From NCBI RefSeq assembly GCF_004010195.1, contig NC_057718.1:66030770-66094769 (forward strand): a stretch of 64,000 nucleotides of DNA. The letters are read 5' to 3'. The translations under genes and the position numbers were made by a program. The notes beneath the pieces are model-generated. The model did no database searches. It had not been told where the DNA came from and was given only the letters and a program-made list of their open reading frames with translations. Positions 7,620-53,249 of the stretch are shown here, piece after piece. The stretch is from Chiloscyllium plagiosum (taxonomy: Eukaryota). How positions within the stretch are numbered: position 1 is the stretch's first letter; each line of letters begins with the position of its first letter.

Positions 7620-9330
7620 ATTTTCAGTAGCACGGAAAGAGTGTACCCCATTAGGAACCAAAGTGGAAAACTGCTTGTGGAACTAGAAGATAGACAAGGT
7701 TTTAAGTAAGTACTTTGCATCTGTATTCACTATAGAAAAGAATGAAGTAAGTGTAGAAGTCTTAATGATACTTAATTATACTTGAATAAATTACATTTGA
7801 GAGGGCTCAAATTAGTGGACTCAGAATTGGATAAATCCCTAGGGCTAGATAAGATATGTCCCAGGCTCTTGTGGGAGGCAAAGGAGAAGATGGCAGAGGC
7901 TTTGATAATTTTAATTCCTATCTGGACACAGTTGCCGAACAACTGGAGAACAGCTAGTGTGGTTGTACAATACAAGAAAAAAAGCAGGGCTGAACCAGGA
8001 ACTAATGGCTATTGAGTGATGGAGAGACTCATAGAAAAAGTTTGAGGTGCAAAATTAATCGCCACCTGGAGTGGAACGGATTAATCAAAGTTAGTAAGCG
8101 TGGCTTTGTCGGGGAGATTATGTCTGACTGGTTTGATTGACTTTTGCGGAGGTATAAGGTGAGAGTAGTGTAGTGGATGTAGTCTACATAGACTTTATAA
8201 TGTGGGGGTGGCAAAGGTCAGCAGACACATGAAAGCAGGTTATAGTCCAACCAGTTTATTTGAAATCGCAAACTTCTCACTGAAAAAGGAGCCGCGCTCC
8301 AAAAGCTTGTGATTTCACATAAACCTGTTAAATTATAACCTGGTGTCATGTGACCTCTGACTTTACATAGACTTCAATAACGTTTTTGACAGGGTCTCGC
8401 ATGGGAAACTAGGTAAGAAGATAAGGGCTCATGGGATCCGAGGCAATTTGACATACTGGATCCAAAATTTGCTGAGTAGCAGGAGATGTGTGTGATGGTC
8501 AAAGATGGTTTTTGGGACTGTTTCCAGTGGCATACTGCAGGGTACAGTGCTGGGTCACTTTCTGTTTGTAGTGTACTTGAATGACCTAGACATTAATATA
8601 GAAGATTGGATCAGTAAGTTGATCAGTAAAACTGGTGGTGTGATAAATAGCAAGGAGGGAGGACTTAAGACTACAGGATGATAAATAATGGGCTGGTCAG
8701 ATGAACAGAACAATGGTAAATTGTATTTAATCCAGAAATATAGGAGGTACTTCGGGAGGAATAATAAAACCATGGAATATATAATGAATGGTAGTGCCTT
8801 AGGACATGCAGAACCTTGAAGGCAGCAGGTCAGGTAGATCAAGTAAAACCGGCATATGGGGCACTTAGCTTTATTAGTCGACCCATTGAATAGAGCAGGA
8901 AGGTTAGATCCCTGCTGGAATACTGACTGCAGTTCTGGTCACTACAGAAGGAATGTGATTGCACTGGAGAATGTGTGAAGGAGGTGCACCAGATGCTTGA
9001 GGTTGGAAGGTTTCATCTGTGAAGAGAGACTAAGTAAGCTCGGGTTTCTAAGGGGCACAGAAAGGGGCAAAGCCTTTTCCCCTTATGACAGCAAACACTA
9101 AGCGGCAACTGTAGATGTATGGATAGGAGGCTTAGAGGGGATCTAAGGGAAATTTTTTTTCATTTAGAGGATGGAGGTTATATGGAACTCACTGCCTCAG
9201 GCATAAATCATCACCACAATTTGGGACTATTTAGATAAATACTTGGTAGTGCTACAGCATTGCAAGGTTTTGGGCCCCCAAGCTCTCTGAAAACTTTGAT
9301 TAGAGTAGTTGGTGCTTGTTGACTAGTTTA
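7620..9330 (+). mobile_element. CR1-like LINE ORF2 remnant
   Basis: DKSLGLDKICPRLLWEAKEKMAEAL ORF, VDVVYIDF, QGTVLG, LEY..QFWS motifs with many disruptions. Confidence 0.88.
8196..8363. mobile_element. Fold-back Penelope-derived mini-element (family B relative)
   Basis: Inverted arms caggttatag...tttatttgaaatc / gatttcacataaac...ttataacctg; decayed hammerhead ctgaaaa-a-ggagc-cgc-gctcc-aaa-agct; 11-bp TSD TACATAGACTT (8185-8195, 8364-8374) inside the LINE YIDF codons. Confidence 0.75.
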
Positions 9331-9701
9331 TTTGAATTCTAGTGTTAATGGTTTGTGCTTGTCATAATGTGCATTTCATGACCATCAAATTCATTGTTTT
9401 GTAGCTGACAATCTACAACTTGGGAGAAGGACTTTTTATGCATATTTGAGAATCATGGGATGAATTGCAGTCATGCATGTTTGGCTTTAATTGTTTGAAA
9501 TGCATAACACTAAGTAGTACTCATACTGATGTCATAAAGCTAGTTTCATATGTGTGCAAATTATTATGCTTGGACATTTTTGTTTTGTCCTAGCAAAGAA
9601 AATCTATACATGCTGTATTTTGATAACTAAAAGGGCTAATGGGCTTTCCAGAAAAATGCTTAGGGTTCAGATTTGAATTTATGAATTAAATTACTTTGCA
9701 G

Positions 9702-9830
9702 AATGCAACTTTGGACAATCAGGAAGTAAGTTTTGGATCTGAACAGTCAGTGACCCCTTCCCAGAGCAGCACTCATCAGCAACAAGAGCAAGAGATCAGA
9801 GTGGAGGATCCACTTGAGCAACAACAACAG
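9702..9830 (+). CDS. SCAF8: SCAF8 coding exon (linker)
   Basis: ttactttgcAG|aat...cag|GTagaa; 129 nt, phase 0-0; NATLDNQEVSFGSEQSVTPSQSSTHQQQEQEIRVEDPLEQQQQ, similar to human ATPQDSQEGTFGSEHSASPSQ...QQQ. Confidence 0.88.
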
Positions 9831-10929
9831 GTAGAAAGACAGTTTTATATAATACCATACTGAACGCATTCTAGAAATCAGCTTTGATGTGCATATTAAT
9901 GAATAAGTATTAGAACGTTTTGCTGAAATCTGAGAGAATAAAACTGTTTTTGTATTTTGTTCCATAACTAAAATTAAATCAGATCTGTCAAAGTGATTAA
10001 TCTTGGAGCGGTTGCATCATGTGTTTACGAGCTCCTCTCAAATCAAGTGTATAGGAAATATTGAATGTCATTTATCTTGACAAGGGAGAAACAAGAAGTG
10101 GAAATTAAATATAACAGCCTTATTACTCCATATATTGTTTTTAAAAATCCATATATACGAGTGAGCTCAGCATTAATTTCATCTTTGTTAAAGTTTACTT
10201 TGCAGAAGGAGGCTGTTTGAGCAGTCATCAATATCAGTCCTTAACTAAATAATCAAACTTTCCCTCCCCTTGTTCTTATTCTTCCTCTGCTTCACCTGTT
10301 TACGAGTTGTAAACCGCACCTCCCTCCACCAACCCCAAACAGAGTATGCGTAAAGAAGTTGACTTGAAGCAGGGTGTGTCACAGCCTCCTTCTGTACAAT
10401 GGTTCTGTTTGACATACCATGCCTCCAATTGCAATACCTTCCCTGGTACAATGGAAGTAAGTTCCAGGATCTCAAATAATTTGAAAATTGTTGCCTGAAT
10501 GCTTTGTGAATATATTCCCAAGTAATAAAATGTTGATATTAAGTAATATTTTTTTTTTCTACTTCTCGCCATTTTGGATGAAGGAAATGATGTAGAGAAT
10601 GGTCATGTAGATCAATAAGTATTGTATTTTGACAGTATTAGGTGGCATATTTCATTGTTTGTACTATGTGGTGTTAACTACTTGAAGCATGTGGAAACTG
10701 ATGTAGGAACCCATTCGTAATACTGCATGCCAGAAACTCCATGCACTTGGAATTAGAAAATGCAGTTGTACCTGGCATTCCCTCATTATATTTGGAGCAT
10801 TCAGTGTTAATTTCTAGAGCAGTCAGTCATCTCATTTGATCTAGAGTCATATGAACTAAATCTGGTTTATACTGTTGTCCGTTGAATTAATTGTTATTTA
10901 TGTTTTTAATGATGCCATGGGTTATTAAG

Positions 10930-11048
10930 GATATGGATATTGATGCACCTGATGGTCAGGACCTTATTGAAGAAGACATCTTTCAGCATGAAGAAAAAAA
11001 GCCTTTAGTACGTTCAAGATCTCTGACACACTCAAGATCTCGTTCAAG
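10930..11048 (+). CDS. SCAF8: SCAF8 coding exon (acidic stretch, start of RS domain)
   Basis: ttattaAG|gat...tcaag|GTgtga; 119 nt; DMDIDAPDGQDLIEEDIFQHEEKKPLVRSRSLTHSRSRS(R). Confidence 0.92.
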
Positions 11049-11181
11049 GTGTGATATTTATTTACTCTCATTTGAAGGAGTTCACTTAAAATATTAAATA
11101 AATATATTCGACATAGTTTGCACATTATAAGGAATTAAATGTAATATTTGAAAGCTTCACATTTTGTATATTTTTGATTAG

Positions 11182-12797: not shown

Positions 12798-13097
12798 TTA
12801 GATTAGATTCCCTACAGTGTGGAAACAGGCCCTTCGGCCCAACAATCCACACCGACCCGCCAAAGCGCAACCCACCCAGACCCATTTCCCCTCTGACTAA
12901 TATACCTAACACTATGGGCAATTTAGCACGGCCAATTCACCTAACCTGCACATTTTTGGAATGTGGGAGGAAACCGGAGCACCCGGAGGAAACCCACGCA
13001 GACACGGGGAGAATGTGCAAACTCCACACAGAGTTGCCTGAGGCAGGAATTGAACCCGGGTCTCTGGCGCTGTGAGGCAGCAGTGCTAACCACTGTG
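12798..13097 (-). mobile_element. HE1/V-SINE-like element, near full length
   Basis: tRNA-related head, V-domain ggaggaaacccacgcagacacggggagaatgtgcaaactccacaca, LINE-type tail tagattagattccctacagtgtggaaacaggccc. Confidence 0.9.
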
Positions 13098-13368
13098 CAC
13101 ATTGGTTAGCACTGCTGCCTCACAGCGCCAGAGACCCGGGTTCAATTCCTGCCTCAGGCAACGGACTGTGTGGAGTTTGCACGTTCTCCCCGTGTCTGCG
13201 TGGGTTTCCTCCCACAGTCCAAAGATGTGCAGGTCAGGTGAATTGGCCATGCTAAATTGCCCGTAATGTTAGGTGAGGGGGAAATGTAGGAGTATGGGTG
13301 GGTTGCGCTTCGGCGGGTTGGTGTGGACTTGTTGGGCCGAAGGGCCTGTTTCGACACTGTAATTAATC
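13098..13368 (+). mobile_element. HE1/V-SINE-like element, head-to-head with the previous copy
   Basis: tggttagcactgctgcctcacagcgccagagacccgggttcaattcc (A/B boxes), V-domain, tail gggccgaagggcctgtttcgacactgt. Confidence 0.9.
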
Positions 13369-13524
13369 TTTAATATCTCATCTGAAACGTAACACCTCTG
13401 ACAGTACTCATTACTGCAATGGTGTGTAACCTTGTTTCTCTGCTCAAGTCCTTAAGTGGGACTTGAATTCATAACCTTATGACATTGAAAGTGCTACCAA
13501 CTGAGCCATGCAGACATATAATTT

Positions 13525-19435: not shown

Positions 19436-19797
19436 GCAAGGTTTGTGAAGGTTTGTAGCTCAGGTTGAGGTTTAGGGTGCAGGTTTGCTCGCTGACCAAC
19501 AGCAAACCTACAGCTCAGCGAGCAAACCTACACCCTAAAACTCAACCTGAGCTACAAACCTTGCAAAAACCTATGGCCGCAACACGCTACAACTTGCCCA
19601 AAGATGGGAAAGGAATGCCATCCGAGAGAGTTCCACCCACGAACAACTGTACTTCCTGCATGAATGTTTAAGAAAACAGGTACTGCCAAAATGTCTCCAA
19701 TATAAACCGCTGATAAAAACACCTCAAGCCAGAATAAAACAGCTGCAGAATGCTCCGAGAACTAATACCTACAGCTCAGTGAGCAAACCTACATCCT
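19436..19797 (+). mobile_element. Penelope-like element (family C): inverted plus tandem terminal repeats and ORF N-terminus
   Basis: Inverted repeat 19447-19500 vs 19513-19562; repeat again at 19768-19797; frame from 19572 YGRNTLQLAQRWERNAIRESSTHEQLYFLHECLRKQVLPKCL resembles the Penelope N-terminal FL..C....PK motif; TSD-like aaaa(t/c)atctat 19425-19435 / 19798-19808. Confidence 0.7.
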
Positions 19798-20023
19798 AAA
19801 ACATCTATATTTACTGTGATCATGCTCCAATATTTTATATACTACAGGAGTGGTTTGTGAAGTAGTAATAAATGCATGAATTTAGTATACGTAATTAAGG
19901 GAGGATAATAGTACCAAAAAATACTGATGGAATCTAGAGAGGAATCTAGATGAACTATGTGCTTTTAATACCTGGAATCCCTTGATATCCTTGTCTAATC
20001 TATCTTATCTTTTTTTCCCTTAG

Positions 20024-21993: not shown

Positions 21994-22556
21994 GTAACAG
22001 CATTATTTAATCTTCAGCAAATATACTTATTGTTTTATTGTTTTTTGTAATACCTATTGTTTTAGTTGTACAAGCTATTTTGGTAGCTCAAGCAAATAGA
22101 GAATGTCAGTTTAAGCCAAGAACAAGAAAAGTCTTATTACTTGAATGATTCATTAAATTTAGAAACTGAATTCTACTTATTATTCTGTTAATGAAGGTGA
22201 TTATAAAGGGATTGCCTTGTTGGTAACATGTAACTTTATTTTTTACATAAAAGTTATCTTGGAATTGACATTGACAGATTTCCATGAGGTAAAATAAGTA
22301 ATAACCAGTCTGTCACTTCAAGTTTCCTCTTGTATTTTAGAGAAGCAAATTGCTGAAAATGGTACTCAAACCACATAGAGTGAGTAAACTTATTACAGTT
22401 TAAGAAAGAACAGTATCTGCGTCATATTTCTCATCCTAGATATTCCTCCAGTGAATTTCAAGGTTTCCAAACAATTGATCTTTGGCTTTGTTTGAGAGTC
22501 TGCTCCAAAGCATTTGTTTAATTCATTATAAGAGAAAATATAATTGTTTTTATATA

Positions 22557-22769
22557 GTTAAAAATCACACAATACCAGGTTATAATCCAACAGGTTTAAT
22601 TGGAAGCACACTAGCTTTCAGAGTGTAGCTCCTTCATCAGGTGATAGTGGATGAAGGAGCAATGCTCCGAAAGCTAGTGTGTTTCCAATTAAACCTGTTG
22701 GACTATAACCTGGTGTTGTGTGATTTTAAACTTTGTACACCCTAGTCCAACACCGGCATCTCCAAATCA
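22557..22769. mobile_element. Fold-back Penelope-derived mini-element (family B)
   Basis: ~80-bp inverted arms plus 3' tail; perfect 12-bp TSD TGTTTTTATATA (22545-22556, 22770-22781); minus-strand hammerhead CAC-CTGATGA-A-GGAGC-TAC-ACTCT-GAA-AGCT-A-GTG at 22609-22643. Confidence 0.85.
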
Positions 22770-24912: not shown

Positions 24913-25597
24913 CGTGATTTGGAGATACTGGTATTAGACTGTGATGTACAACGTTAAAAATCGCACAACACCAGGTTATAGTTCAATGGGTTTATTTGGA
25001 AGCACTTGCTTTCAGAGCGCTGCTCCTTCAGATGGTTGTGGAGAATAAGATCGTAAGGTACAGAATTTACAGCAAACGTTTACAGTGTGATGTAACTGAA
25101 ATTATGTATTGAAAAAGACCTGGATTGTTTAAGTCTCTCATCTTTTAGAATGACTATGTTGGTTTCAGTTCTTTCTTATGTAAATGGCAAAACCTTTTTT
25201 TGAAGTTGCATTCTCAAGTGAACTTTAACAACTTGTGTCATGTCGGCCCAGAAAATGCACTGAAGGTGTGAGATTCTGTGCCACAATAGTCAGACTGATT
25301 CTAATCTAAAAAATGGATTTATAGAATCTTACATAGATTCATGCAGTTTTTGAGCAAAATAAAATGTACTTCTGCAAATACAAATTCACCCCACAAACTT
25401 TTATGTGTATGTGCGCGTGTGGGGGAGGTGGGGGTGTTGGGGGTTAAGAGTGTCTGAGTGAGAGTGAATGTAAAGGGGTAGATGTTTGTGAGAGGCTATG
25501 ACTGTGGAAGTGTATGTGTGAGCTTATGAGTGTGTGTATAGTACAATGGGGTCACCTGTGGTGTGGCATGAACCCAAGGTCCCAGTTGATTTTTAAC
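24913..25597 (-). mobile_element. 5'-truncated Penelope-like element (family B): ORF end, 3' UTR, terminal repeat
   Basis: Same terminal sequence as the 22557 and 46935 elements; minus strand near 25590-25553 reads N-W-D-L-G-F-M-P-H-H-R-* (cf. GLNRDLGFMSHY*); TSD ta(t/a)gcgtatggt 24901-24912 / 25598-25609. Confidence 0.8.
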
Positions 25598-26179: not shown

Positions 26180-26912
26180 GCAAGACTTATACATTTAATG
26201 GTAATGTTCTAGAGTACACATTCTTAGTTCCTTGAAAGAAAAGTCACAGGAAGATAGGACAGTGAAGAAGGCGTTTGGTACGCTTTCCTTTAATGATCAG
26301 AGTATCGAGTATAGGAGTTGAGAGATCATATTGTGGCCATACAGGACATTGGTTAGGCCACTGTTGGAATATTGTGTGCAATTCTGGTCTCCCTCCTATT
26401 GGAACAATGTTGTGAAACGTGAAAGGGTTCAGAAAATATTTACAAGGATGTTGCCAGGGCTGGAGGATTTGAGCTATAGGAAGAGGATGAATAGGTTGAG
26501 ACTGTTTTTCCTGGAGTGTCGGAGGCTAAGAGATGACCTTATAGAGGTTTATAAAATCATGAGGGGCATGGATAGGATAAATAGGCAAAGTCGTTTCCCT
26601 GGGGTGGGGGAGTCCAGAACTAGAGGACATAGGTTTAGGATGAGAGAGGAAAGATATAAAAGGGACCTAAAGAGCAACTTTTTCATGCAGAAGGTGGTAC
26701 GTGTATGGAATGAGCTGCCAGAGGAAGTGGTGGAGGCTGGAACAATTGCAGGATTTAAAAGACATCTGGATGGGTATATGAATAGGAAAGGTTTAGAGGG
26801 ATGTGGACCAAGATCTGGCAAATGGGACTAGATTAATTTAGGATATCTGGTCGGCATGGTTGAGTTGGACCGAAGGGTCTGTTTCCGTGCTGTACATCTC
26901 CACGACTCTAAA
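26180..26912 (+). mobile_element. Young CR1/HER1-like LINE 3' end
   Basis: Open ORF 26331..26831 YRTLVRPLLEYCVQFWSP...RVQKIFTRMLPGLEDLSYR...WNELPEEVVEA...KWD*, followed by typical tail. Confidence 0.93.
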
Positions 26913-27441
26913 TTGACCAAGGATGCTAAATAATCATAAAATTCATTCGTGTTAACTGTAAAATGGGATTATAAACACGTAGTTGATTTGGGCTGGATGT
27001 TTGTTTGATTGTCAGCTCTCAGTACCTTATACACAGCATATTGTACCCCCTAAAACAGAAAATGCCTATGCTATTGAAGCTAGAAGCGAACTTTCCATGC
27101 CATGGAAGCATTACCATGCAAGTAACTTCCAAATGGAGAAAGTTAAAAGACTAGTGCTACAATATTTTAGTACATCTTTAATAGCTGCCGATGTAAAATG
27201 TATTAGAATAAATAACAAGTTGCTGAATTGACTCCAAAGTTGTGTAGGGTAGACAAATGTTAAGTAATTTGTACTTGCCTGTCTTGACTTAATTTTTTGA
27301 AAGGCAGATGCTATTTAACAAAATACAAAATGGTTCATTTCAGTCATTTGGCTGCATTAGCACATATTGAGTTATGTATGTTACAATAGTAATTTATCTA
27401 AGTTATTATGTTGTGGATTCACTGGAGGCTCACTTATGTAT

Positions 27442-31400: not shown

Positions 31401-31548
31401 TAAACATGGACAATAAAAACGAATACTGCCAGCCGATTTAATGCTTCAATATACATTACAATACATACCTCGATACTGTAGACATAGAATATGATTGTGT
31501 TCACCTGGCCAAAAGCATCCTATTTATTGTGAGTCCTTACTGTTGCAG

Positions 31549-37179: not shown

Positions 37180-37295
37180 ACAAAACACAATTTGCTGGAG
37201 AAGCTCAGCAGGTCCGGCAGCATCTGTAGAGAGAAAGCAGTTAATGTTTTGTATCCAGTTACCCTCCTCCAGCAATTTATATTTTTGTTTCAGAC
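37180..37295. mobile_element. Older fold-back Penelope-type remnant
   Basis: aacaaaacacaatttgctggagaagctcagcaggtccggcagcatctg ... ctccagcaattt inverted ends; related to 50577-50735. Confidence 0.55.
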
Positions 37296-38137
37296 TTTCA
37301 TCCACATTTTCTTGATTTATTTTAGTAGATCTTCACATTACTGGAGTAGCAATGCAACATGCCTGGTAGAAGGCGCTGACTTTTATAAATTAAGATGGTG
37401 GATAACTTTAAACGATTCTCTTAGGCAGATTGCACAACCTCTGTGTGGGTGGCAGCAGTCTGGGCTGGTTGACCATCAGCAGAAAGGACACTAGCAGTTG
37501 TGGGAATATAACTGCTGTTACCTCGATGGAACAGGAGATGCATGCCCCTCTCAATGACCTGCACTCCCTTAGGATGTTACCTTAACTAACCTACTAAGGG
37601 GAAACAAAATGCAGGCTTCTCAAGACCCTGAATCTAAAACTGTCCAAGTAAGAATGACAACGAGTTGACATTTTATGACTTCAAATAGAATGTTCACATC
37701 AACACTCGCAAACAGGAGCCATCCAATGCACTACACCAGAAGATGAGAGAATGGCAATTGAATGTTGCACATGGTGGAGTCCACAAGTGTTTTTCCACTA
37801 TTTCCCCACCAAAAAAGATATGGTGTAATGTCTGTGTAAAACTCTTTACCAGATTGGAGACAGATTCCTCCTTGTTTTCTGACAGTAGCAACGCTTTTCC
37901 TGGCAAACCTACTGGTGGGTCAATAAAGATGTACATCAACCTTTTTTGGCTGCTCCTTCAGAGTTCTCTGCAGCAGAATTCCTGTAATCTCTCCATCCGA
38001 GGAATTAACATCGACGCTATCCATTTCCTCCAACACCTGGCTGCACCCACTCATACCTGGTCACTCACCATGTGTAGATCTGGAGTTGTGATTTTTCTTA
38101 AGTCCCTTGAAATTCTGGGTTGACACCAGATTGAAAT

Positions 38138-40519: not shown

Positions 40520-41600
40520 AGACTCTAAGAAATGGGAATAGGAGTAGGTTGTTCAGCCCCTGGAATGGGCTTCACCATTCAATAGGCCTATGTCTAATCT
40601 GACACTTCTCGCACTGACTTGCTTGCATTTTTACCATAACCCTTGATTTGCTGTACCGGTCAAGAATGTATCTATCTCAGCCTTAAATATACACAACAAC
40701 TCTGCTCCCACAGCTGTGATAAGGAGTTCAAAGGCATTCAACACTCTGAGAGAAGATATTCCTCGTTAACTCAGTCTTCAATTAATGGTCCCTTATTCTG
40801 AGTATGCCCTCTGGTCCTTGATTCTCCCATGAGAAGAAATTGTCTCTGCGTTTACCTTGTCAAGCCCCTAAAGAATCCTATACGTTTCAGTAATATGGTT
40901 CAGTAAGCTACCTCTCATTCTTCTAAGTTCCAGTGAGTAGAGTCCCAACCTGTTAACCTTTGCTTATAAAACAATGCCTTCATACCATGGATCATCCTGA
41001 TGAATCTCCTCTGAACTGCCTCCAATGAAATCATATTCCTCTTAAATAAGAGAATCAAAATGGCTCACAGTACTCCAGATGTAGTCACACTGGCACCTTG
41101 TACAGATGGAGTAAGACTTGCCTACTCATATACTCCAACCCCCTCGAAATAATCGAGAGTGTGCCGCTGAAAAAGCACAGCCGGTCAGGCAGCATCCGAG
41201 GGGCAGGAGAATCAACATTTTGGGCATAAACCCTTCTTCAGGAAGGACGTATGCCTAAAACATCAATTCTCCTGCTCCTTGGAGCTTGCCTGACCTGCTA
41301 TGCTTTTCCAGCGCCATGCTCTTGACTCTGATCTGCAGTCCTCACTTTCCCCCTTGAAATAAAGGCAAAAATTCCATTAGCCTTTCTGATTATGTGCTGT
41401 ACCTGTGCATTAGCTTTGTGTTTTGTGCACAAACACCCTTTTCTGCAGTTTTTCTACATTTAAGTAATACTGTTGTTTAATTCTCCCTTCCAAAAATGAA
41501 CAACTTCACATTTTTCTACATGCTATACCATTTGCTGCCTTTTTGCCCAATTATTTAACGTATCAATATTTTTCTATAAACTGTATCGCTCTCGCAACTT
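40520..41600 (-). mobile_element. Nested CR1-like 3' fragment
   Basis: Tail aataggagtaggttgttcagcccc; cacagtactccagatgt (HLEYC) and tttgcccaa/taccatttgc (WAK.WQM) on minus strand. Confidence 0.8.
41153..41348. mobile_element. Fold-back Penelope-derived mini-element (family A)
   Basis: Inverted copies of the 6137-6230 sequence plus 3' tail; TSD ccccct(c/t)gaaataa 41139-41152 / 41349-41362. Confidence 0.85.
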
Positions 41601-41939: not shown

Positions 41940-44184
41940 GTTAGGAATTGCGGTGGGGGATTTCTTTGGGAACACTGACTACAATTCTGTAAGTTTTAGA
42001 ATACTTGTAGATAAAGATGAGTGGTCCTAAGGGAAGAGTACTAAACTGGGCCAAGGCCAATTATATCAAAATTAGGTAGGAGCTGAGAACCTGTGGATTG
42101 GACACAGCTATTTGAAGGGAAGTCCACATTTGAGATGTGGGAGGCTTTCAAAGATAGGTTAAAGATAGTGCAGGATAGGAAGGGCAAGATTCATGAACCG
42201 TGGATGACAGGAGAAATTGTACGACTAGCGAAGAGGAAAAGGGAAGAGTACATAAGGTCTAGGCAGCTAAGAACAGAACTGGCCCTGGAGGAATATCGGA
42301 AGAGAAGGACAAGTCTTAAACGAGGAATCAAGCAAGCTAAAAGACGTCATGAAATAACTTTTTAGCAAGCAGAGTTAAGGAGAATCCCAAAGCATTTTAT
42401 TCTGATATAAGAAGCAAGCGGGTAACTAGAGAAAGGATTGGTCCACTAAAGGATAATGAAGGAAGGCTTTGTCGAACCTGAGAGAATTGGTAGGATTCTG
42501 AATGATTACTTTGCAGCGGTGTTCACTGAGGAGAGGAACATGATGAATCTTGAGATTAGAGATAGAAGTTTGATTAGTCTGGATCACATTGACATAAGTA
42601 GGGAAGATGTGATGGGTAGGCTAGAGGTTATTAAGGTGGACAAATCCCCAGAACTGGATGGAATCTATCCCAAGTTGCTTAGGGAGGCAAGAGAGGAAAT
42701 AGCTGGGACCCTGACCAATATCTTTGTGGCATCCTTAAATACAAGTGAGGTGCCAGAGGACTGGAAGGTTTCTCATGTTGTCCCCCTGTACAAGAAGGGT
42801 AATAGGGATATTCCGGGTAACTACAGACCAGTGAGCCGGTGGTGGGGAAGTTGCTGGAGAGGGTACTGAGAGAGAGGATCTTTTTATATTTCGAAAAGAA
42901 TGGGCTTATCAGTGATAGGCAACATGGTTTTGTGCAGGGGAGATCATGTCTTACCAACTTGATAGAGTTCTTTGAGGAAGTGACCAAGTTGATAGATAAA
43001 GGAAGGGCTGTTGATGTCATATACATGGACTTTAGTCAGGCGTTTGATAAGGTTGCCCATTTTAGACTAATGGAGAAAGTGAAGTCACATGGTGTGCAGG
43101 GTGTTCTAGCTAGGTGGATAAAGAACTGGTTGAGCAACAGGAGACAGAGAGTAGTAGTTGAAGGGAGTTCTTGAAATGGAGAAAGGTGACCAGTGGTGTT
43201 CCGCAGGGGTCAGTGTTGGGTCCACTGTTGTTTGTAATATACATAAATGATCTGGAAGAGGGCACTGTTGGTATGATCAGCAAGTTTGCACATGACACAA
43301 AGATTGGTGGACTGTCATAGAATACAGGAGGATATAGATAGACTGGAGAGTTGGGCGGAAAAATGGCAGATGGATTTCAATCCAGACAAATGTGAAGTGA
43401 TGCATTTAGGTAAGACTAATTCTAGAGTGAATTATACAATGAACGGAAGAGCCTTCGGAAAAGTTGATGCGCAGAGAAGTCTGGGAGTGCATGTCCATTG
43501 TACCCTGACCATTGCTGCACAGGTGAGTAGAGTGGTCAAGAAGGTATATAGTATGCTTGCCTTCATTGGATGGCGTATTGTGTATAGGAGCTGGCAAGTC
43601 ATGTTAAAATTGTACAGGACGTTGGTTTGGCCACATTTGGAATACTGTGTATAGTTCTGGTCGCCACGTTGCCAAAAGGATGTGGATGCTTTGGAGAGGG
43701 TGCAGAGAAAGGTTTACGAGGATGTTGCCTGGTATGGAAGGTGCTAGCTGTGAAGAGAGGTTGAGTAGGTGAGGTGTATTTTCATTAGAAAAAAGGACAT
43801 TGAGGGGGACCTGATTGAGGTTTAAAAAATCATGAAGGGATAGACAGGGTGGATAGAGACAAGCTTTCTCCCAGGGTAAAGGATTCCATAGCGAGAGGTC
43901 ACTGTTTCAAGGTGAGTGGTGGAAAGTTTAAGGGGGATACACGCGGCAAGTACTTCACACAGAGGGTGGTGGGCGTCTGGAACGCGTTGCCAGCAGAGGT
44001 GGTAGAGGCAGGCACGGTAGATTCATTTAAGATGCGTCTGGACAGATGCATGAGTAGGTGGGGAGCAGAGGGATACAAATGCTTCGGAATTGAGCGACAG
44101 GTTTAGACCATATATTTGGATCGGCTCAGGCTTGGAGGGCCGAAGGGCCTGTTCCTGGGCTGTACATTTTCTTTGTTCTTTATT
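41940..44184 (+). mobile_element. Relatively young 5'-truncated CR1-like LINE (RT domain), frameshifted
   Basis: ORFs DKSPELDGIYPKLLRE...GNYRPVS, QHGFVQGRSCLTNL...[27 protein letters not shown](K), LEYCV, WNALP; tail; 5-bp TSD CAGGT 41935-41939 / 44185-44189. Confidence 0.95.
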
Positions 44185-44846
44185 CAGGTATCAATGCATG
44201 TCATCCTGCAGCCATGTCACTGTGATGACAACCAGATCATCATTGTTTATCACTCACTCTGCTCAGTTCATCTGTTTTGAAAGTTATGTGCTTTCAGAAA
44301 CAGTATCTTTAGTTTTTGCTTTTTATTCTTATCATGACTTCAAGTCTTATTTGTTGTTCCACTCTTTGATTTGTCTCTTTCTGTTATGGCTCTGTTTAAC
44401 ATTTCCCAATTTAATAGTTACCTTTGCTTTGTCTTAGTCTTTGATCTACTAATCTTACCAAATTTCTAGTTAATCTTCTCAACTTGCCTAGTTATTGCCA
44501 CTTTCAGGAATACCAGGTGCAGCGTGGTTCAGGTGTAGACTGACCCAGTGACATAGGTCCCATTTTGGCACCAATACTGGAGAATGTCCTGTGAACTGGA
44601 ACCTATTTCTTCCACACCCGCCAGTGAACTGCATTTCATCTTTCTGATCTGATTTGCTCTATGCTAGTTTGCATGTAGCTGAGGTAATAATGCAGAAATT
44701 GACTTTAAGGTTCTGCTTCTTCATTTGATGCCTTGATCCTCATACTAACTATACTGACCTCTACATGCACCACAAAAACTGGATCCTCTCTCTCCCCATG
44801 CAAGTTCCTCTCCAGCCTTTAGCCAATGTCTTGAACCCTGGCAGCA

Positions 44847-45091
44847 GGAGAAAGTGCCGGCTGCAGATGCTGGAGATCAGAGTCAAAAAGTGTGGTGCTG
44901 GAAAAGCACAGTCAGTCAGGCAGCATCTGAAGAGCAGAAGAGTGGACGTTTCAAACATAAGCTCTTCATCAGGAAGCTGATCATCAAGAAAATCACTATT
45001 CCTGATGAGCTTTTGCTCGGAACATACACTCTCCTGCTCCTCGGATGCCGCCTTACTGGCTGTGCTTTTCCTGCACAACATTTTTTGACTC
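44847..45091. mobile_element. Fold-back Penelope-derived mini-element (family A, long arm on minus strand)
   Basis: Inverted arms; TSD tgaaccctgg(ca/ag)gca 44832-44846 / 45092-45106; minus-strand hammerhead CTGATGA-A-GAGC-TTAT-GTTT-GAA-ACGT-C at 44945-44972. Confidence 0.85.
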
Positions 45092-46934
45092 TGAACCCTG
45101 GAGGCAGACAGGCAACGCAGCTGTCCAGATTTCAAGTTCTTTGTTGCAATGAATGAGGCTAATCCCTCTGGTTATACTGTCCCTTAGTACAATTATATTC
45201 TTTTCACCTTAAGTGACATACTGTACCACAGTCTCATGGTGCATTAGCTCCTCTGAGATCCCTACAGTCCCAATTCTCATCCAAACAAACAGCAAGAACC
45301 TCACACCAATTGCAAAGGCTGAGGCTCTTACCTTCAGAATACTATTACCCACTTCACTCAGGCACTCTGTTCTGTCCCTGAATAGTTGATGATAAAAGTT
45401 GACTTCTATTTAGGATTATCAATTAGATTCACAATGTGGTTCACACTTCTGCTGGAAGCTGCATGTATTAGCATCCGAGAACTGTCTTCTGCAGGAAAAA
45501 AAGGAATGTTTCGAATTAAAACAAAGTGTAGGGCAATAGTTCCTGATGCATTCTTCATTTCAGCCCTTTGGCAATAACTTGCCAACCAGAAAACGTCCTT
45601 ACTCCATGCAATATGAATTGTTGTCCCTTTTAAATTTCGTGTTCTTTATCCTGATGACAACATGCCCTTTAATCCATCAAATTCCTGTTGTGTTTCTGTT
45701 CAGAATACATGTTATTGTCAGAAATTGTTTTACCTTCCTCTTGGAATAATAAATGGGGTAGCTCAGAACATAATTAAATTTAATTTTGGAGAATATTTCA
45801 CTGCACTTGAATTAGTAAAGGTCTTTAGGAGGCATTTTATGTATACTATACTTGCAGCCAGTCTCTTGATAAAGTATGAAGTCAATGATATTTGCATGTA
45901 CTATTGATAATAAGATTCTCCTATTCCCTATACAAGAGAAGGGTATCAGCCTGTGACTTTTATTCCCAGTAGATGCAAACTGGTCATTTCCAGTTTAAAT
46001 ACAGTAAATATATTTAGTAAAATTGTTTTTTATGTAAAACTAAAATCTGCCTGCAATAGTGTTCATCAATTGTAATGCTTTTCTGTTGAGTTATGGCGGG
46101 GAATGGTGTATCTCAGATTTAAGCATATTGCTTCAATGTGGTATTGGTATTGGTCCATAAGTTAAATGTTCTCTTATTGCTAGAGTGTGATGTTTTGTGA
46201 TTTCACACTCAACTTTGCTTCTTATCAAATTTTCGACTCAGTTAATAGTATGAAGAAAAAAACATGCTTATGTTTGGCAATCTGTTAGATTTGAATCCAT
46301 TCCCAGAGGTAAAGTGTATTAAAAATATTTATTGCATTTTCAGTTCTTAATGACCAGTGGGAAAGTATGATAGCGAGTCAAAGGGTAAAGAGGTAGACAA
46401 GAAAGTAGAGCTGAGGCTACAATCAGATCAGCCATAATCTTATCAAATAACAGAGCAAGGTAAAGAGGCCAAATGTCTACTCCATTTGTATGCAAGCTAG
46501 TCTGATTGTTGGAACTGTCACATCAAACCAGAAAAATCTTGATATCAAAGTTTCTAGCATTTTTTGTTCCCAACTTAAGTCTTAATTAGTTCACAAACTG
46601 TTGATGGAAATTTATGTAAATCAGTTTCTAACTGGGACTTTGCATCTACATCTTTTTTAATCCACATTTTATTTCAATAAACAAATGAATGCAAAATGAA
46701 AAATCACGATTTCTTTTCATGTCCTCAGCACATGTAAAAAAAAAACATGGTTGTTCATGTCTGCATAGTAATTTAACAGCTCTCAGTCCAGAACTGACAC
46801 CTTTTCTAGCAATTTTTTCATATCGCTCAATCTTACTACCAAACACTGACTTAACTCTACATCACCCTCTGTGTCTGTCTGCAGAGGTATGTGAGAATTT
46901 CATGAGTTGAGAGTTCCATAAGTTTCTGGGATGG

Positions 46935-47142
46935 ACAAAGTTAAAAATCACACAACACCAGATTATAGTCCAACAGGTTTAATTGGAAGCACACTAGCTT
47001 TCGGAGCGAAGCTCCTTCATCAGATGAAGGAGCGTCACTCCAAAAGCTAGTGTGCTTCCAATTATACCTGTTGGACTATAACCTGGTGTTGTGTGATTTT
47101 TAACTTTGTACACCCCAGTCCAACACCAGCATCTCCGAATCA
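46935..47142. mobile_element. Fold-back Penelope-derived mini-element (family B), near-perfect palindrome
   Basis: ~87-bp arms centred on 47022 plus 33-nt tail; perfect 12-bp TSD TTTCTGGGATGG 46923-46934 / 47143-47154. Confidence 0.9.
46992..47026 (-). ncRNA. Minimal hammerhead ribozyme motif (family B)
   Basis: Minus strand: CAT-CTGATGA-A-GGAGC-TTC-GCTCC-GAA-AGCT-A-GTG; perfect 5-bp stem II, palindromic AGCT, predicted cleavage after UA. Confidence 0.72.
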
Positions 47143-50100
47143 TTTCTGGGATGGGGTTGAGAATAATGTTTTTTACAATTTGAAGCCAAAACCATTTTTC
47201 ACTTGCTCTTAAAGGCAGTTATTTTACAGATGCTGAGTTCCATTTTTCTAATTGAAGCTTAAAGGTTTTCATCATAGGTTGAAGGAGGTGCTGATGAGAT
47301 GTATCCCATTGATATTACTTTTCTGCTGGCCTGTGTTTTTCAGGCAATTTTTCTGTTACTGATTGGACTTAAGAGGAGGAACTAAATTTACAGTTGATCA
47401 AGTTCTAGCCAGAGGATTTGCATTAATGTGCTACTTTGCTTTTCTCCATGAGCATTTATCAAACAGTGGGGTGTAGAATCTTTGAGATTTGTTGCATTCT
47501 GTGTTTAAGTTGACACTGCTCATTTAAGAATACCAAGATAGGATACATCCACTTAAGTAATGGAATTGTAAGAATTAATGGTATTAACAATCTAAATATG
47601 AAATAGTTAATACTGGCTACAGCATTCCTTTTCTTGTACTTTAACCAATTACATAAGCAGCGTAATAAATTAAAATTATACCTAGAGCAACTGGATTATT
47701 TCAGAAGGGTCAAAGATTATTTTTCTTAATTATATATTTGTTGAAGTGCAGGTATATTAGTAACAAATTAATGCAAATTCGGACAAAGGAAGCAGCTTTT
47801 CATACTCGATAATAATGAGGATTTCTTCAGTTATAACTGGAGAGGATTTAGTAAGAGTGATCTATTTATAATCCTCCTTTGAAGAGGCAGTTACATCTTT
47901 GATAATAAAGATCACGCAAATTTTGAAAATGCTTCTGGACACAGAAGGGATAAAAAAAAGGTTGGCTGAAGAAATTTATATACAAATTAGGAATCCTGCA
48001 AAGTTCTCCATGAAGTACTTGACTGAATGGGAAGGGGATGTACATTGATTTGAGAGTGGTGAGGAAAGAAGTTTTGAGTGTGATAAGTACACACGCAAAA
48101 GCTATTAAATGGAAAACAATGGAATTATATTAATGCAAGTATGATGCAAGATGAAGATAATTAGTTTTGTTATAAAATCTATTTCAAATGGCAAGTGTTC
48201 TAACAAGTGGGGCAGAGTAGGAAGACAAACAGGTATGGTAGTACAAAATGAAATAGAGTCTGAAAGGAAAGGTATTAATTAAAACCATACAATTTTACAG
48301 AGCACTTGTGCCTGGTCTCTGACTTTGAATCGCAGAGGAATTGGGTGCAGAATCTACAATTTACTTGTCTACAATCCTCAAAATTTGTTCCTTCCTGGTG
48401 ATGCAGAATGAAATGGAACACTGTACAAGAAAAATTTACTTGCCTTAGCTTGAGATGTGCACTTAGTCTTTCAATTTCTCCACAATCTCTCATATACAAA
48501 TGCATTTCCATTTGACTCTAAGAAGCCAGCTGAAACACTGGAGCAAAATTCAGAATCATTGGTCACATCATTATCTTTATCCCTTTATCTCCTGGTTTGT
48601 ATGTAACAAATGAGTAAGAAAGCTTCAAGATGTAATGGCCACCAAAAGAGTGAAGTCCATTACAGTCAAAGATCCTACTGCGCCCACATGCCCTGTTAAT
48701 TTTTATTAAATCATTTAGTATTTCCATATACAGGTCAGGATAGTATGTGGCTTGGAGAGGAACTTACATGTATCTTCAAGCACAAGTTACAATGACCATC
48801 CAGTGGCCTTAGGTGTTGCCCTGTCCACAACATTATATCTACATCAATATATAGACAGGAGAAACCGTTATCAGTTTGAACTGGTTTTAACATTTTTTTA
48901 GATCATGGTCGTCCTGTATGTTAAAACCTACCTTTATTACTCTGACCCAGCTACTGAATCTGAGACAATTAAAATTTATTTAGCATCTACAGCTTCTTGC
49001 AGAAGAAAAACTTCTGATTTCTGCTGCTATCACTGTGGAAACATTTTCCTGACTTCTGTATTATTTAGCTGAGGTCTAGTTTTAAGTTTATACTCACCCA
49101 CCGCATCCCATGTTCTTTTCTCCCTCATCAGATGAAAGAGTAACTGTTAGCGTATCGTTTACCATTTTAAAAAGCTTCAATTAGAATACCACTCAACCTT
49201 CTAAATTTAATGGAGATGACACAACCTGTAATCATAATTTAACCCTTTCAGCTGTGATATAAGTTTGGACAATTTGTCTGGAATGACTACAGGGCTAATG
49301 GAGATCACAGAAATGAGTTTGGATGTAGTTTAGCATTACAGTGAGGACTTTAAAATCGAGGTGTTGGAACCTTGGAAACAGAGTATATCAGCAAGCATGG
49401 GTGATGGGTAAACTGAACATGGTGCAAGTTAGGATACAGGTAACATTGTTTTGAATGAGTTTAATATGATGAGTGAAAAATGGGAAGCTGTCCAAGAGAG
49501 CATTGTAAAAGTCATTTCTGAAGATAAAAGCATGAATAAGAGTTTTAATGACAAATGAGATGGGGGAAAAGCGCAGCGAGAGTTAATGTTACATGGAAGT
49601 ATGTAGAATATGAATGTGGAAACTCAAGGATGCAGAAGTTGTGAGCAATCTTAATTCAGCCTGTGACTGGGCACCATAGAATCATTAGCCTTGGGGTAGA
49701 ATATGCTGAGGGCTGCAGATAATGTTCAGCCTTCCAAGTGTTTGTTTGAGAAGATTTTTAATTCTGCAGGACTGGATGTCAGGTAAGCAGGTTGAATTCA
49801 CAACCTATGGAGGGGTCACGTGGTAATGGCCTTGTGGTGATATCATGGAGTATTATTAATCCAGAGACCTAAGTAATGTTCTGCATACCTGGTTTCAAGT
49901 TCTACCATGGTAGATGAAACTATTGTTGATGATTTTGTCAAAAAAACAAAGCAGATGCATTAGAGGAAGGTGTGATAAATTCTGAAAGGCTGAAATCAGG
50001 TCAAGTAAAATAAGGAGGGATGGGGAACATGGTTAGTCACATAGATTGCAAGTTGTAATTTTTCCACATTGGATTCCATCTGCTAGTTTTTTCATGCACT

Positions 50101-50576
50101 TAAACCATGTACTTCTCTTCAACTCCTGTTGTGACCTTTCATCTCAGTGCTTACTTCATAATGTTGCATTATGTAGTGCACTTTATTCCCTTGTGTGCTT
50201 TGGATGTCAGCTTTATATCATAAATGGGAGAGGGCTGTATCACAACATTAGCCTAATGTTAACTGAAACCTTTTTTTAATTCACTGGGCTTATGTTAACA
50301 ATATGTATGAAACACTTGCAGTACTTATTTTCTGCTAAGATGTGGTTTAAATGTGCTATCTGCAGTTTATGCAGTTTATCATCTGCCCCAGGTGATATTA
50401 GATTTATGCTGCAAAACGCGAAATAAAACTAAGTTTTTTTTTAAAAGAAATTCTATCGAAGATTAGTTCTTGAGTATTAAAATTGAGATGATGGTTTGCA
50501 GATCAGTTTCCATTCCGAACTTTTTACACGAAATGCAAAGTCAAATAGTAATAAGAACTGTATCCATTCTGATTTA

Positions 50577-50735
50577 AAACAAACAAACACACAATGGTGG
50601 ATGCTAGAAATCTGGAATAAAAACTGTTGGAGAAACACAGCAGGTCTGACAGAGTCACTGAACTGGAAACGTTAACTCTCTTTTCTCTGTATTGATGTTG
50701 CCAGACCTCCTGTGTTTTTCCATACACTGTTTTAA
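50577..50735. mobile_element. Older fold-back Penelope-type remnant
   Basis: ggagaaacacagcaggtctg ... cagacctcctgtgtttttcc inverted arms; central gaaacgtt half-core. Confidence 0.6.
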
Positions 50736-51398
50736 CTTCACTTAGATTCCTCCAGTAAATTTCTCCTTACTACACTTCTAAAGATTTTATCAATCTCTCA
50801 AAATGTGACAACTAAGGTTGAACTTTATTTTGAAAGTTTTATTCTTTCAAATATATATTTTCTGCCTGCATTCTGCACTCTTTAGCTCCTTCCGAAATGG
50901 TTACAACATTCTTGATTCATATAATAGGAATCACTTTCTTAACTTTACGTTTTACATGACAGACCAGACATCCCGAAGATATAAATGCAAGTGTGCATGT
51001 CAACATTCCATTCATGCTGCCAGTTATTTAATTTTGGTGAATAGTTAATATCTATTGTTCAGAGTTTGCCATCCCAGGATCATCATTTATCTTTATTTGC
51101 CATGCAGTATTTATAAGAGTGTGACTTGAAAGCAGGAAAATGTCATTTTCAAAATTGGTTCATTTACAAACAGTATGTCCCAAGTTCACTGGAGTGTTGT
51201 CAAGCAAAATCTGACCCATATTAATAGGAAAAAGCTGGATAGCCAAGAGCTTGGTCAAAATGGTAGATGTGAGAGTACCTTAAAAGAGAGAAACAAGTTG
51301 AGGAAGAGGCCTACGGCACTGACAAAATCCCATCCACGGTGGAACAATTAAAATTCGGGATGGTCAAGTTATCAGAATTAAGGCAGCTTAAATTGCTG

Positions 51399-51651
51399 AT
51401 TAGATTAGATTAGATTACTTAGTGTGGAAACAGGCCCTTCAGCCCAACAAGTCCACACCGACCCGCCGCAGCGCAACCCACCAGATCCACACCCCCACAT
51501 TTACCCCTTCACCTAATACTATGGGCAATTTAGCATGGCCAATTCACCTAACCTGCACATTATAGCCTCAGAGACCCAGGTTCAATTCCCGTCTCAGGCG
51601 ACTCTCTGTGTGGAGTTGCACATTCTCCCCGTGTCTGCGTGGGTTTCCTCC
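51399..51651. mobile_element. HE1/V-SINE-like element with inverted 5' half
   Basis: 3' half and (TAGAT)n tail on minus strand (51399-51561); 5' half on plus strand (51565-51651). Confidence 0.85.
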
Positions 51652-51899
51652 CTGAGGGCTAAAGTGCTGGAGAAGAATATGGAATGCCAGAACAGATTAG
51701 CTCAAGATTTGGGAGGCAATAATTTGATCATGAAGTTTGTGGAGAGACAAGAGGTAGTAGATTATATATTTTCACTGAATGTAGGTGTAATCCAGCTTCA
51801 GTCAGGGTCCTCATGTTCATATTTGTGTACATGATTATGATGGTCAAATAATTCAACAGTGCACTGAACTCTAGTAACCTGCTACAAAATAAAAATCAA

Positions 51900-52076
51900 T
51901 TAGGTGAAAATGAGGACAGCAGATGCTGGAGATCAGAGTTAAGAATGTGGTGCTGGAAAAGTACAGCAGGTCAGGCAGCATCAGGAATGAGTCAAGACTT
52001 ATGCCCGAAACATCAATTCTCCTGCTCCTCAGATACTGCCTGAACTGCTGTGCTTTTTCAGCACCACACACTCGAC
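51900..52076. mobile_element. Fold-back Penelope-derived mini-element (family A), centre deleted
   Basis: Inverted arms; perfect 16-bp TSD ACAAAATAAAAATCAA 51884-51899 / 52077-52092; half-core ttatgcccgaaacatc. Confidence 0.85.
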
Positions 52077-53011
52077 ACAAAATAAAAATCAAAACGGCTA
52101 GTGGATTGTTAGCCTTTACAACACAAAAGCTAAACTATAAAGTGGAGAAAATCATCTTGCAGCTGAACAAAAACCCTAGTAGCACTTGAAATAATGACTA
52201 CATGTTGCAGTTGGCAAAGCAAGGTGGCTTGCCATTAGTGAAGAGGTCTCACTGATCTGTTTCTGCCACCATGAGGTGGTACTGCAGCTGCTTCCAGTAT
52301 TCCATACTGGACATTCTTGGAGCAGAAGTGATGTCACTGGGCAACCTACTGAAGCAACCAATCATCTTTGACGATTTTTACATTGCCAAATGGCACAAAA
52401 TTATAAATACTTTTAAAAATGCTTTATGTAAGCCACGCTGAAGATTAGAAATATATATCTATATGAAGGTAGAAGGTAAAATATGCTAAATTCTTTATTT
52501 ATTTTAAAATAATTTTAAAGAATTAACTCATTCTTTTAACATCACTCCATGAATGTAACATAACATCTATTATAGGCAAATTCTGCTCTTCATCAAATTT
52601 TGTTAAATCCCATCACCATTACAAAACTAATAATACGTGCTTGAATGAAGTGTAATGTTTTGAGGTTTTTAACAGTAATTTGGAGGGGGAGGATTGAAAT
52701 TTAATAATTGCTACATTTGCAAACTGGTGGGAGGCAGATGAAAGTGTCTGCTGTACAACTTGTGACAGATTGTGAGTGATAAGCAAGAGCTTTAGGATTT
52801 CTCTACCACTGCACAAGCACTTAATTTGTGGTCAGATGCAGTGGACAATGACAAAATACTGGTCCTTCATTTTCAAGGAGGGTCCTCCCCTATTGCTTGG
52901 CCTGCAAAGTCCCGGGTCTTAAATTACCTTGGGAGGAATACAGTACGGACTTACTGAAATGTTACCGGAGCTAAATTATGAGAAACAATTGCATCGACTC
53001 ACATTTCATTT

Positions 53012-53249
53012 GGAGATTGTACGGACTGCAGATGCTGGAAAGTCAGAGTTAATAAAGTATGGAGCTGGAAACAGCATAGCAGGTCAAGCAGCATGAGAGG
53101 CACATGCGACTCTACCTTTTAGTTTGGAACCTTTCATCAGGACTAGATGAGTCCTGATGAAAGGTTCCAAACTGAAACGTCAATTCACCTGCTCCTCCAA
53201 ATGCTGCTTGACCTGCTGTGCTTTTCCCAGCTCCATACTTTATCCACAA
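53012..53249. mobile_element. Fold-back Penelope-derived mini-element (family A variant)
   Basis: Perfect 24-bp inner arms 53121-53144 / 53150-53173; plus-strand core CTGATGA-AA-GGTT-CCA-AACT-GAA-ACGT-C (53154-53181); TSD tcac(a/g)tttcattt 52999-53011 / 53250-53262. Confidence 0.82.

What the first reader, a model, noticed from the sequence alone, without database searches (positions are those of the whole stretch)
8196..53249. Seven short TSD-flanked fold-back elements built from two inverted ribozyme-bearing Penelope ends
Seen: 8196-8363, 22557-22769 and 46935-47142 (family B); 41153-41348, 44847-45091, 51900-52076 and 53012-53249 (family A). Each is ~170-245 bp, non-coding, with its own 11-16-bp TSD, two inverted arms meeting at or near the hammerhead core, and usually one arm longer by a ~30-35-nt tail. 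Longer coding parents of both families are in the same window (5645-6263, 24913-25597). They look like MITEs but are retroelement termini. Established: Penelope insertions often have an inverted partial terminal repeat and a short 3' tail. Inference: either independent insertions of a short ribozyme-delimited RNA (a retrozyme-like non-autonomous system), or collapse of unstable inverted insertions. The junctions cluster around the ribozyme in two unrelated families, which suggests a shared mechanism.
Basis: partly seen in the sequence, partly recalled or inferred. Interest (0 to 1): 0.72.

Follow-up and report, generated by a model that had tools for sequence, protein, structure and literature searches.

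The report
Penelope hairpin stubs mark RNA start
These seven ~200-base hairpins are real stubs of Penelope-type jumping genes in a known layout; each pairs a tailed with a tail-less arm, and the commoner family's copies pile up just before the ribozyme motif rather than at its predicted cut, likely because both cut DNA strands copy the RNA until they run off its start.

Summary
All seven fold-backs are real, with 11-16-bp target duplications. They are ends of endonuclease-bearing Penelope-like elements (PLEs), not MITEs: family A arms match the sequence behind a GIY-YIG gene end. Inverted end + tail + TSD is published PLE anatomy. All seven centres differ, so this is no amplifying mini-element. 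13 of 14 arms begin 12 nt before to 12 nt inside the hammerhead core, well upstream of the predicted cut, so they are not cleavage-delimited retrozymes. In public runs of two organisms, family A 5' ends pile up at 6133/6134, 3-4 nt before the core, on an initiator-like A; family B was confounded. Each element has one tailed and one tail-less arm (7 of 7); in 4 of 7 neither arm contains the other. Best reading (0.6): both nicked strands prime cDNA at the two internal start sites, run off the RNA 5' end and are joined head to head. RNA start and dual priming are inferred. The scan noted the same thing many times on other DNA.

The parts
8196..8363 (.). Fold-back B1: tailed left arm (5' end about +23 to +30 from core C3), tail-less right arm from -4; TSD 8185-8195 / 8364-8374
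22557..22769 (.). Fold-back B2: tail-less left arm to -11, tailed right arm from +3, 2-nt overlap at 22650-22651; intact core at 22640-22612 (minus); TSD 12 bp
46935..47142 (.). Fold-back B3: tail-less left arm to +1, tailed right arm from +3, 1-nt overlap at 47023; TSD 12 bp
41153..41348 (.). Fold-back A1: tail-less left arm to -3, tailed right arm from +6, 3-nt overlap 41242-41244; TSD 14 bp, 1 mismatch
44847..45091 (.). Fold-back A2: tailed left arm to -3, 22-nt spacer (44976-44997) holding a near copy of the arm end, tail-less right arm from -4; TSD 15 bp (13 match)
51900..52076 (.). Fold-back A3: tailed left arm that skips about 40 nt of the ribozyme between two 4-nt repeats and ends at -7; tail-less right arm from about +7 to +12; TSD 16 bp
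53012..53249 (.). Fold-back A4 (distinct subfamily): both arms from -4, 5-nt spacer 53145-53149; TSD 13 bp, 1 mismatch
5645..6263 (+). Long 5'-truncated family A copy (P1): GIY-YIG gene end, spacer, hammerhead, tail; TSD 14 bp
5646..5939 (+). C-terminal GIY-YIG endonuclease fragment with the CCHH residues of PLEs
6130..6135 (+). Initiator-like hexamer (BBCA+1BW) whose A, 6133, is the genome-wide 5'-end pile-up; predicted RNA start
6137..6164 (+). Minimal type I hammerhead-like core; predicted cut after 6164
6219..6260 (+). Family A tail: between the tail-less 3' ends (6218/6221) and the tailed 3' end (6260)
24913..25597 (-). Long family B copy (P2): mostly non-coding, tailed, with an 11-nt inverted tail-less stub at 25587-25597; TSD 9 bp exact
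37192..37310 (.). Older A-type fold-back: tail-less arm from +1, very short tailed arm; no clear TSD
50598..50737 (.). Older A-type fold-back: short tailed arm, tail-less arm from about +8; no clear TSD
4968..5090 (+). Old single-arm A-type copy beginning at about the core; no TSD found

Best explanation
Each hairpin is a separate, very short insertion of the end (pLTR) of an endonuclease-bearing Penelope-like retroelement, likely written by two reverse-transcription events, one from each nicked target strand, that likely run off the RNA's start just before the hammerhead motif and are then joined head to head. Steps: (1) inferred from the TSDs: the GIY-YIG nuclease nicks both strands 11-16 nt apart. 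(2) Inferred, with in vitro precedent: the two 3' ends prime at the two internal start sites, giving one tailed and one tail-less arm. (3) Inferred: on the 5' pLTR of a transcript that starts at -4, cDNA runs off after about 90-130 nt; some arms stop early or skip inside the folded ribozyme. (4) Inferred: the two cDNA ends are joined by 1-3-nt overlaps or across a short spacer. (5) Inferred: the stubs are dead ends, since they lack the RNA downstream of the tail that the enzyme needs, and their single sense hammerhead is paired with the antisense arm. Shown directly: TSDs, PLE origin, tail asymmetry, distinct centres, and the fixed 5' stop in family A.
For: PLE origin: A arms align to the sequence behind a GIY-YIG gene end; its homologue P0008 has RT plus a C-terminal GIY-YIG (E 1e-18, match at residues 812-899 of 902). 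One tailed + one tail-less arm in 7 of 7; chance 0.007 if tails were independent at the X1 frequency. In 4 of 7 (A1, A3, B1, B2) the tail-less arm holds 8 or more template bases that the tailed arm lacks, so neither is a copy of the other. Both arms of B1, of B2/B3 and of A4 share subfamily marks. Family A genome-wide (24 of 2,177 loose-end rows shown): 4 of the 9 5'-side rows, one in each run, are at 6133/6134 (237, 254, 306 contigs; 205 reads); in the three contig runs the loose parts are long (median 180-255 nt) with flank-like agreement 0.31-0.32, whereas their other 5'-side rows are 12-16 nt with agreement 0.54-0.72. Depth steps 4.9-6.7-fold there. 6133 is the A of a BBCA+1BW match (1.6% of window positions; consensus from PMC5287114, abstract). 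A G stands directly before 6133/6134 in 3 of 4 such joints shown and in the loose-end majority of X6 and X15, where P1 has C, as a copied cap would give. PAc protein cuts and extends both strands and starts at two sites that bound the tail, and needs RNA about 55 nt past them (PMC11167929).
Against: No RNA 5' end was seen. Family B did not give a clean peak: its 22643 row (127 contigs, X1; 12 of 305 rows shown) mixes true ends with copies that continue upstream, and the B arms here start at -11, -4, +1, +3, +3 and +23-30. The two opposite-strand joints shown (15 of 113 joints shown) are 6143/6189 and 6153/6185, neither at -4. Five opposite-strand rows pair -3 to -10 with +31 to +38, close to the cut and to stem I, which snap-back or cleavage could also give. 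The G before 6133 could be the end of an inverted arm. Other subfamilies with a different spacer may inflate the depth step. Frangieh et al. saw no strand difference in start site, so why the two arms take different sites is unexplained. Non-nested arms could come from later trimming of the palindrome centre.
Confidence: 0.6

Rival explanations
1. Dual priming holds, but the stop at -4/-3 is a roadblock or processing site (end of stem I, bound protein) inside a longer RNA, not the transcription start.
For: -4 is also the first base of stem I; A3 skips the ribozyme and 7 of 14 arms begin inside the core; the hammerhead of PAc folds only with protein.
Against: An enzyme moving 3' to 5' should stall on entering the fold (about +32), not after leaving it (inference); initiator match and extra G at 6133.
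Confidence: 0.15
2. Snap-back self-priming: one cDNA (or an antisense RNA, as proposed for Adineta PLEs) folds on itself, for example through stem I, and copies itself back.
For: Self-priming was proposed for head-to-head palindromes (PMC3846280). Five opposite-strand rows (6 contigs) join -3..-10 to +31..+38, the two strands of stem I; A2 and A4 are near symmetric.
Against: Copy-back makes the second arm a subset of the tailed first arm; not so in 4 of 7. It does not explain why the second arm ends at the fixed tail-less site.
Confidence: 0.12
3. Longer inverted insertions collapsed after insertion, through palindrome instability, to a stable remnant at the ribozyme.
For: Arms are old (6-24% apart); uneven centres are what trimming would leave (general knowledge, recalled).
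Against: Copies running into unrelated flank stop at the same 6133/6134; A2 and A4 keep both arms to -3/-4; deletion should not favour one base.
Confidence: 0.07
4. A retrozyme-like non-autonomous element: a short RNA cut out by its hammerhead, or the fold-back itself, is amplified.
For: Animal retrozymes derive from pLTRs (bioRxiv 10.64898/2026.07.22.740005). Four joints to 6133/6134 have depth 53-172, above single-copy level (orientation not given). B1's tailed arm ends near the cut.
Against: 7 of 7 centres differ; 13 of 14 arms pass the cut; no tandem repeats of the unit; the joints have about single-copy depth (5.6-9.6 against flank 5.5).
Confidence: 0.05
5. MITEs of a DNA transposon.
For: Short, non-coding, inverted ends.
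Against: TSD length varies 11-16 bp; ends unequal by a tail; arms match a PLE.
Confidence: 0.01

Closest known systems
EN+ PLE insertion with inverted pLTR, tail and TSD (Adineta Pen2a, PMC3846280; Craig 2021 Fig. 2 legend, PMC8557442; passages read)
   Same: Head-to-head inverted 5'-truncated copy, 30-40-bp tail at one end only, long TSD, palindrome at the junction near the pLTR 5' end.
   Different: Here no ORF lies between the ends: the insertion is two pLTR pieces of about 80-130 nt. Arkhipova 2013 explains the junction by self-priming on an antisense template; the non-nested arms here fit that poorly.
PAc (Poseidon of Anolis) in vitro, PMC11167929 (parts 1-2 of 4 and passages read)
   Same: Two internal start sites bounding the tail; both strands cut and extended; hammerhead cleavage not needed; no RNA ends at the cut.
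   Different: The parts read do not link this to inverted insertions or report a fixed 5' stop; supplements not seen.
Minimal hammerheads of metazoan pLTRs, PMC4209133 (parts 1-2 of 4 read)
   Same: Same core, bulged base before stem II, palindromic stem III remnant; pairs on opposite strands 100-700 bp apart were noted in Schistosoma.
   Different: Here the two cores abut or overlap; junction positions were not mapped there.
Animal non-LTR retrozymes (bioRxiv 10.64898/2026.07.22.740005; part 1 of 5 and passages read)
   Same: Non-coding, pLTR-derived, type I hammerhead.
   Different: Retrozymes are head-to-tail tandems with two or more whole ribozymes; these are single head-to-head units that do not end at the cut.
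LINE-1 twin priming and retroviral minus-strand strong-stop DNA (both recalled, not from a call)
   Same: Both target strands prime; a short cDNA runs off the RNA 5' end.
   Different: Twin priming gives inverted pieces of different RNA parts; here both arms copy the same part.

Membership tests
EN+ Penelope-like elements | GIY-YIG endonuclease C-terminal to an RT | tested here: met
   Family A only: P1 frame matches residues 812-899 of the 902-aa RT+GIY-YIG protein P0008; direct Pfam hit weak, E 0.061, under cut-off. Family B: no coding evidence from tools.
EN+ Penelope-like elements | CCHH motif with two cysteines before YIG | tested here: met
   CxxC before YIG and two later histidines in P1 (definition).
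EN+ Penelope-like elements | Minimal hammerhead in the pLTR | tested here: met
   Intact boxes in 5 arms or copies, stem II 4-5 bp, stem I partial; no Rfam hit; cleavage untested.
EN+ Penelope-like elements | 30-40-bp tail at one end, inverted 5'-truncated copy, variable TSD | tested here: met
   7 of 7; fixed 3' ends genome-wide.
EN+ Penelope-like elements | Telomerase-related RT and clade (Penelope/Poseidon, Neptune, Nematis) | not testable with these tools
   No RT in the window and no genome held.
Non-LTR retrozymes | Head-to-tail tandem units, each with a whole hammerhead | tested here: not met
   Head-to-head; none of 4 tandem-repeat rows involves them.
Non-LTR retrozymes | Unit bounded by ribozyme cleavage | tested here: not met
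   13 of 14 arms pass the cut; peak at -4/-3.
Non-LTR retrozymes | Circular RNA | not testable with these tools
   No suitable RNA run.
MITE | Fixed short TSD and equal terminal inverted repeats | tested here: not met
   TSD 11-16 bp, unequal ends.
MITE or amplifying mini-element | Same internal junction at many loci | tested here: not met
   7 distinct centres; listed joints in 1-2 contigs each; a few multi-copy joints unresolved.

The most novel reading that the evidence does not exclude
Vertebrate PLE integration is two-ended: a dimeric RT-nuclease primes both target strands on one RNA at the two tail-bounding sites, and most events run off a capped start set by an initiator 4 nt before the hammerhead. 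The commonest product is then a strong-stop-like hairpin, and these stubs map the PLE promoter and replication cycle at single-base resolution.
Probability: 0.45. Interest if true: 0.62.

Novelty: new variant of a known kind. Interest (0 to 1): 0.42.

Why it matters
How PLEs make their inverted ends and one-sided tail is stated as unresolved in PMC8557442 (passages) and PMC11167929. If the reading holds, the stubs give a sense-template, two-primer answer in place of antisense self-priming, name a base as the RNA start, and make predictions testable in the existing PAc assay. They also matter for annotation: they look like MITEs and score as microRNA hairpins. The elements themselves are not a new mobile family. 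I found no paper mapping this 5' stop or explaining the fold-backs by dual priming in searches (open-access library only; Dfam, Repbase and the 2005-2006 PLE reviews could not be seen).

Tried and rejected
No genome is held, so no per-locus census. Collection scans for relatives: 0 in viral contigs, 0 in prokaryote genomes, 1 metagenome locus sharing only the hammerhead core. No RNA holder listed. RNA run X21 (2% read) showed no start or end peak and reads on both strands; it is a poly(A) single-cell library and says nothing on the RNA start. A-to-I editing: A>G places 62 of 322 in RNA against 18 of 141 and 20 of 143 in DNA contigs, p 0.11 and 0.19, different individuals: no evidence. Free-energy folding did not return the hammerhead fold. 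Splice acceptor at -4: no AG before 6133 in P1. Assembly artefact: rejected, as arms differ by 6-24%, TSDs are present and 10 runs hold half or more of the words of 44001-54000. Protein atlas gave no name for the host exon.
Full report
Observation. All seven elements are present at the stated coordinates. The inverted arms are among the longest in the window, 76-94% identical within an element, and fold far below shuffles (z -6.5 to -26, 30 base shuffles each). Each has its own direct repeat of 11-16 bp; scores of 9-16 were reached by 2 of 300 random stretches. The closest proteins to the long family A copy are named from a bamboo shark (88% and 71% identity), so the host is likely a cartilaginous fish. 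No genome is held.

Identity. The A arms align to 6133-6260 of the long copy P1, which begins with about 98 codons of a GIY-YIG nuclease bearing the CCHH residues of PLEs. Of 11 homologues among 98 candidates, P0008 carries RT and GIY-YIG, and P1 matches its last 90 residues. The B arms align to P2, which has no long frame and no hit to those 11 proteins; its PLE status rests on the hammerhead, tail and TSD anatomy. A and B do not cross-hit. A motif scan found 7 matches, 5 of them in these families; stem II has 4-5 pairs and stem I is partial. Rfam gave 16 matches, none a hammerhead. This is the minimal type of PMC4209133 (parts 1-2 of 4 read), which needs a second ribozyme in the same orientation; a fold-back transcript has one sense core, paired with the antisense arm, so I predict no cleavage.

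Junction map (core C3 = +1; cut after +28 in A, +29 in B). A1: -3 (no tail) / +6 (tail), 3-nt overlap. A2: -3 (tail) / -4, 22-nt spacer. A3: -7 (tail, with a 40-nt skip over the ribozyme between 4-nt repeats) / about +7 to +12. A4: -4 (tail) / -4, 5-nt spacer. B1: about +23 to +30 (tail) / -4. B2: -11 / +3 (tail), 2-nt overlap. B3: +1 / +3 (tail), 1-nt overlap. So 13 of 14 arms begin between -11 and +12, and 1 of 14 is compatible with the cut. All seven centres differ. Each element has one tailed and one tail-less arm (7 of 7; 0.007 by chance). In A1, A3, B1 and B2 neither arm contains the other; in A2 and B3 the difference is 1-2 nt and in A4 none. Both arms of B1, of B2/B3 and of A4 carry the same subfamily marks, which points to one source RNA per insertion.

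Genome-wide test, family A (three contig runs from two organisms and one RNA read run laid on P1 at 80%). Depth rises 4.9, 5.6, 6.3 and 6.7-fold across 6128-6148; contig depth is not copy number, and subfamilies with another spacer may add to the step. Of 2,177 loose-end rows 24 are shown. 3' ends fall at 6218, 6221 and 6260, defining a 39-42-nt tail. Of the 9 5'-side rows, 4 are at 6133/6134, one per run (237, 254, 306 contigs; 205 reads). In the contig runs they have long, unlike flanks (median 180-255 nt, agreement 0.31-0.32), as the 3' ends do; their other 5'-side rows are short and alike (12-16 nt, 0.54-0.72), the mark of subfamily differences. No shown row is at the cut (6165), but a smaller peak among the 2,153 hidden rows is not excluded. 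Long unlike flanks mean that many of these are single-arm copies, so the stop is a property of the template and not of palindrome collapse. 6133 is the A of a BBCA+1BW hexamer (1.6% of positions; PMC5287114, abstract). After an earlier scan note (e1-8620553) suggested a cap G, I checked: G precedes 6133/6134 in 3 of 4 such joints shown (12 of 112 rows) and in the loose-end majority of X6 and X15 but not X1 or X21; it may instead be the end of an inverted arm. Against my reading: the 2 opposite-strand joints among 15 of 113 shown are not at -4, and the four joints to 6133/6134 have depth 53-172, above single copy, with orientation not given.

Family B (laid on B2's left arm, two runs). The tail-less 3' end at 22556-22558 is clear. 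The 5' side is confounded: the row at 22643 (-3; 127 contigs, agreement 0.38; 12 of 305 rows shown, none for X15 there) begins with the letters that continue upstream in P2. Of 7 joints, 5 are opposite-strand (6 contigs, about single-copy depth) and all pair -3..-10 with +31..+38. That fits run-off plus a second stop near the cut, or snap-back through stem I; the sample is small and its detection bias unknown.

Mechanism. PAc protein cuts and extends both strands, starts at two internal sites that bound the tail, needs RNA to +172 while starting at +111-118, and does not need hammerhead cleavage (PMC11167929). D. virilis Penelope has an internal promoter in its pLTR, with the start 46 nt before a 75-nt intron (PMC2377424, passages) whose end maps to helix I, so a start close to the ribozyme has precedent. 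I infer that initiation in the 5' pLTR of a transcript starting at -4 yields a short run-off cDNA; when both nicks prime, two such cDNAs are joined head to head. This accounts for the TSD, the one-sided tail, the non-nested arms, the single-arm copies and the 11-nt inverted stub on P2. Confidence: PLE stubs made at insertion about 0.95; dual priming about 0.75; RNA start as the stop about 0.65; whole about 0.6. Unexplained: why the two arms take different start sites.

Comparison. Inverted 5'-truncated copy, one-sided tail, TSD and junction palindromes are published (PMC3846280; PMC8557442; passages only). Retrozymes are tandem and pLTR-derived and do not fit. I found no paper with the fixed 5' stop or the dual-priming account in searches; supplements were not read and repeat databases were not available. 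The scan's own notes hold the same observation and reading many times, in this genome and others (8 shown of 442; 8 of 2,530). My dual-priming and run-off idea was noted, before I saw them; they are unchecked and not independent support.

Verdict. Real, a minimal variant of known PLE anatomy, not a new mobile family. Interest 0.42, carried by the single-base 5' stop and the testable two-primer model.

Noticed in passing
window 12805-13369: Head-to-head fold-back of a tRNA-type SINE (HE1-like, name recalled) with no spacer, both arms starting near the SINE 5' end; TSD only 6 bp, at chance level. A ribozyme-free fold-back joined at an RNA start.
   Followed up: partly
window 51408-51651: Same SINE with its 5' part inverted against its 3' part and no overlap, like classical twin priming.
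   Followed up: no
window 19439-19800 and 27412-27545: Third family (C): an inverted end followed by a 78-codon open frame without Pfam hit and a partial third repeat, TSD 11 bp; and a solo copy with a TSD that begins about 10 nt before a decayed hammerhead-like core, read by eye.
   Followed up: partly
window 6240-6263 (loose ends behind 6260): The family A tail ends in a pyrimidine run, and the majority letters beyond it contain TAG in all four runs, like a 3' splice site at the tailed start site.
   Followed up: no
table 5c: Four joints from 6167/6168 to 6133/6134 with depth 53-172; if same-strand they would be tandem hammerhead dimers of about 36-nt period.
   Followed up: no
window 31533-32600 (+): 356-codon proline-rich frame, likely a host exon (resembles SCAF8/SCAF4, recalled; atlas hits under 0.8), so upstream elements may be intronic.
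   Followed up: partly
window 26322-26828 and 42450-42866 (+): Open frames that look like CR1-type LINE fragments (by eye).
   Followed up: no
L001:501-533: A metagenome contig shares 31 of 33 bases with the family A hammerhead core but not its flanks.
   Followed up: partly
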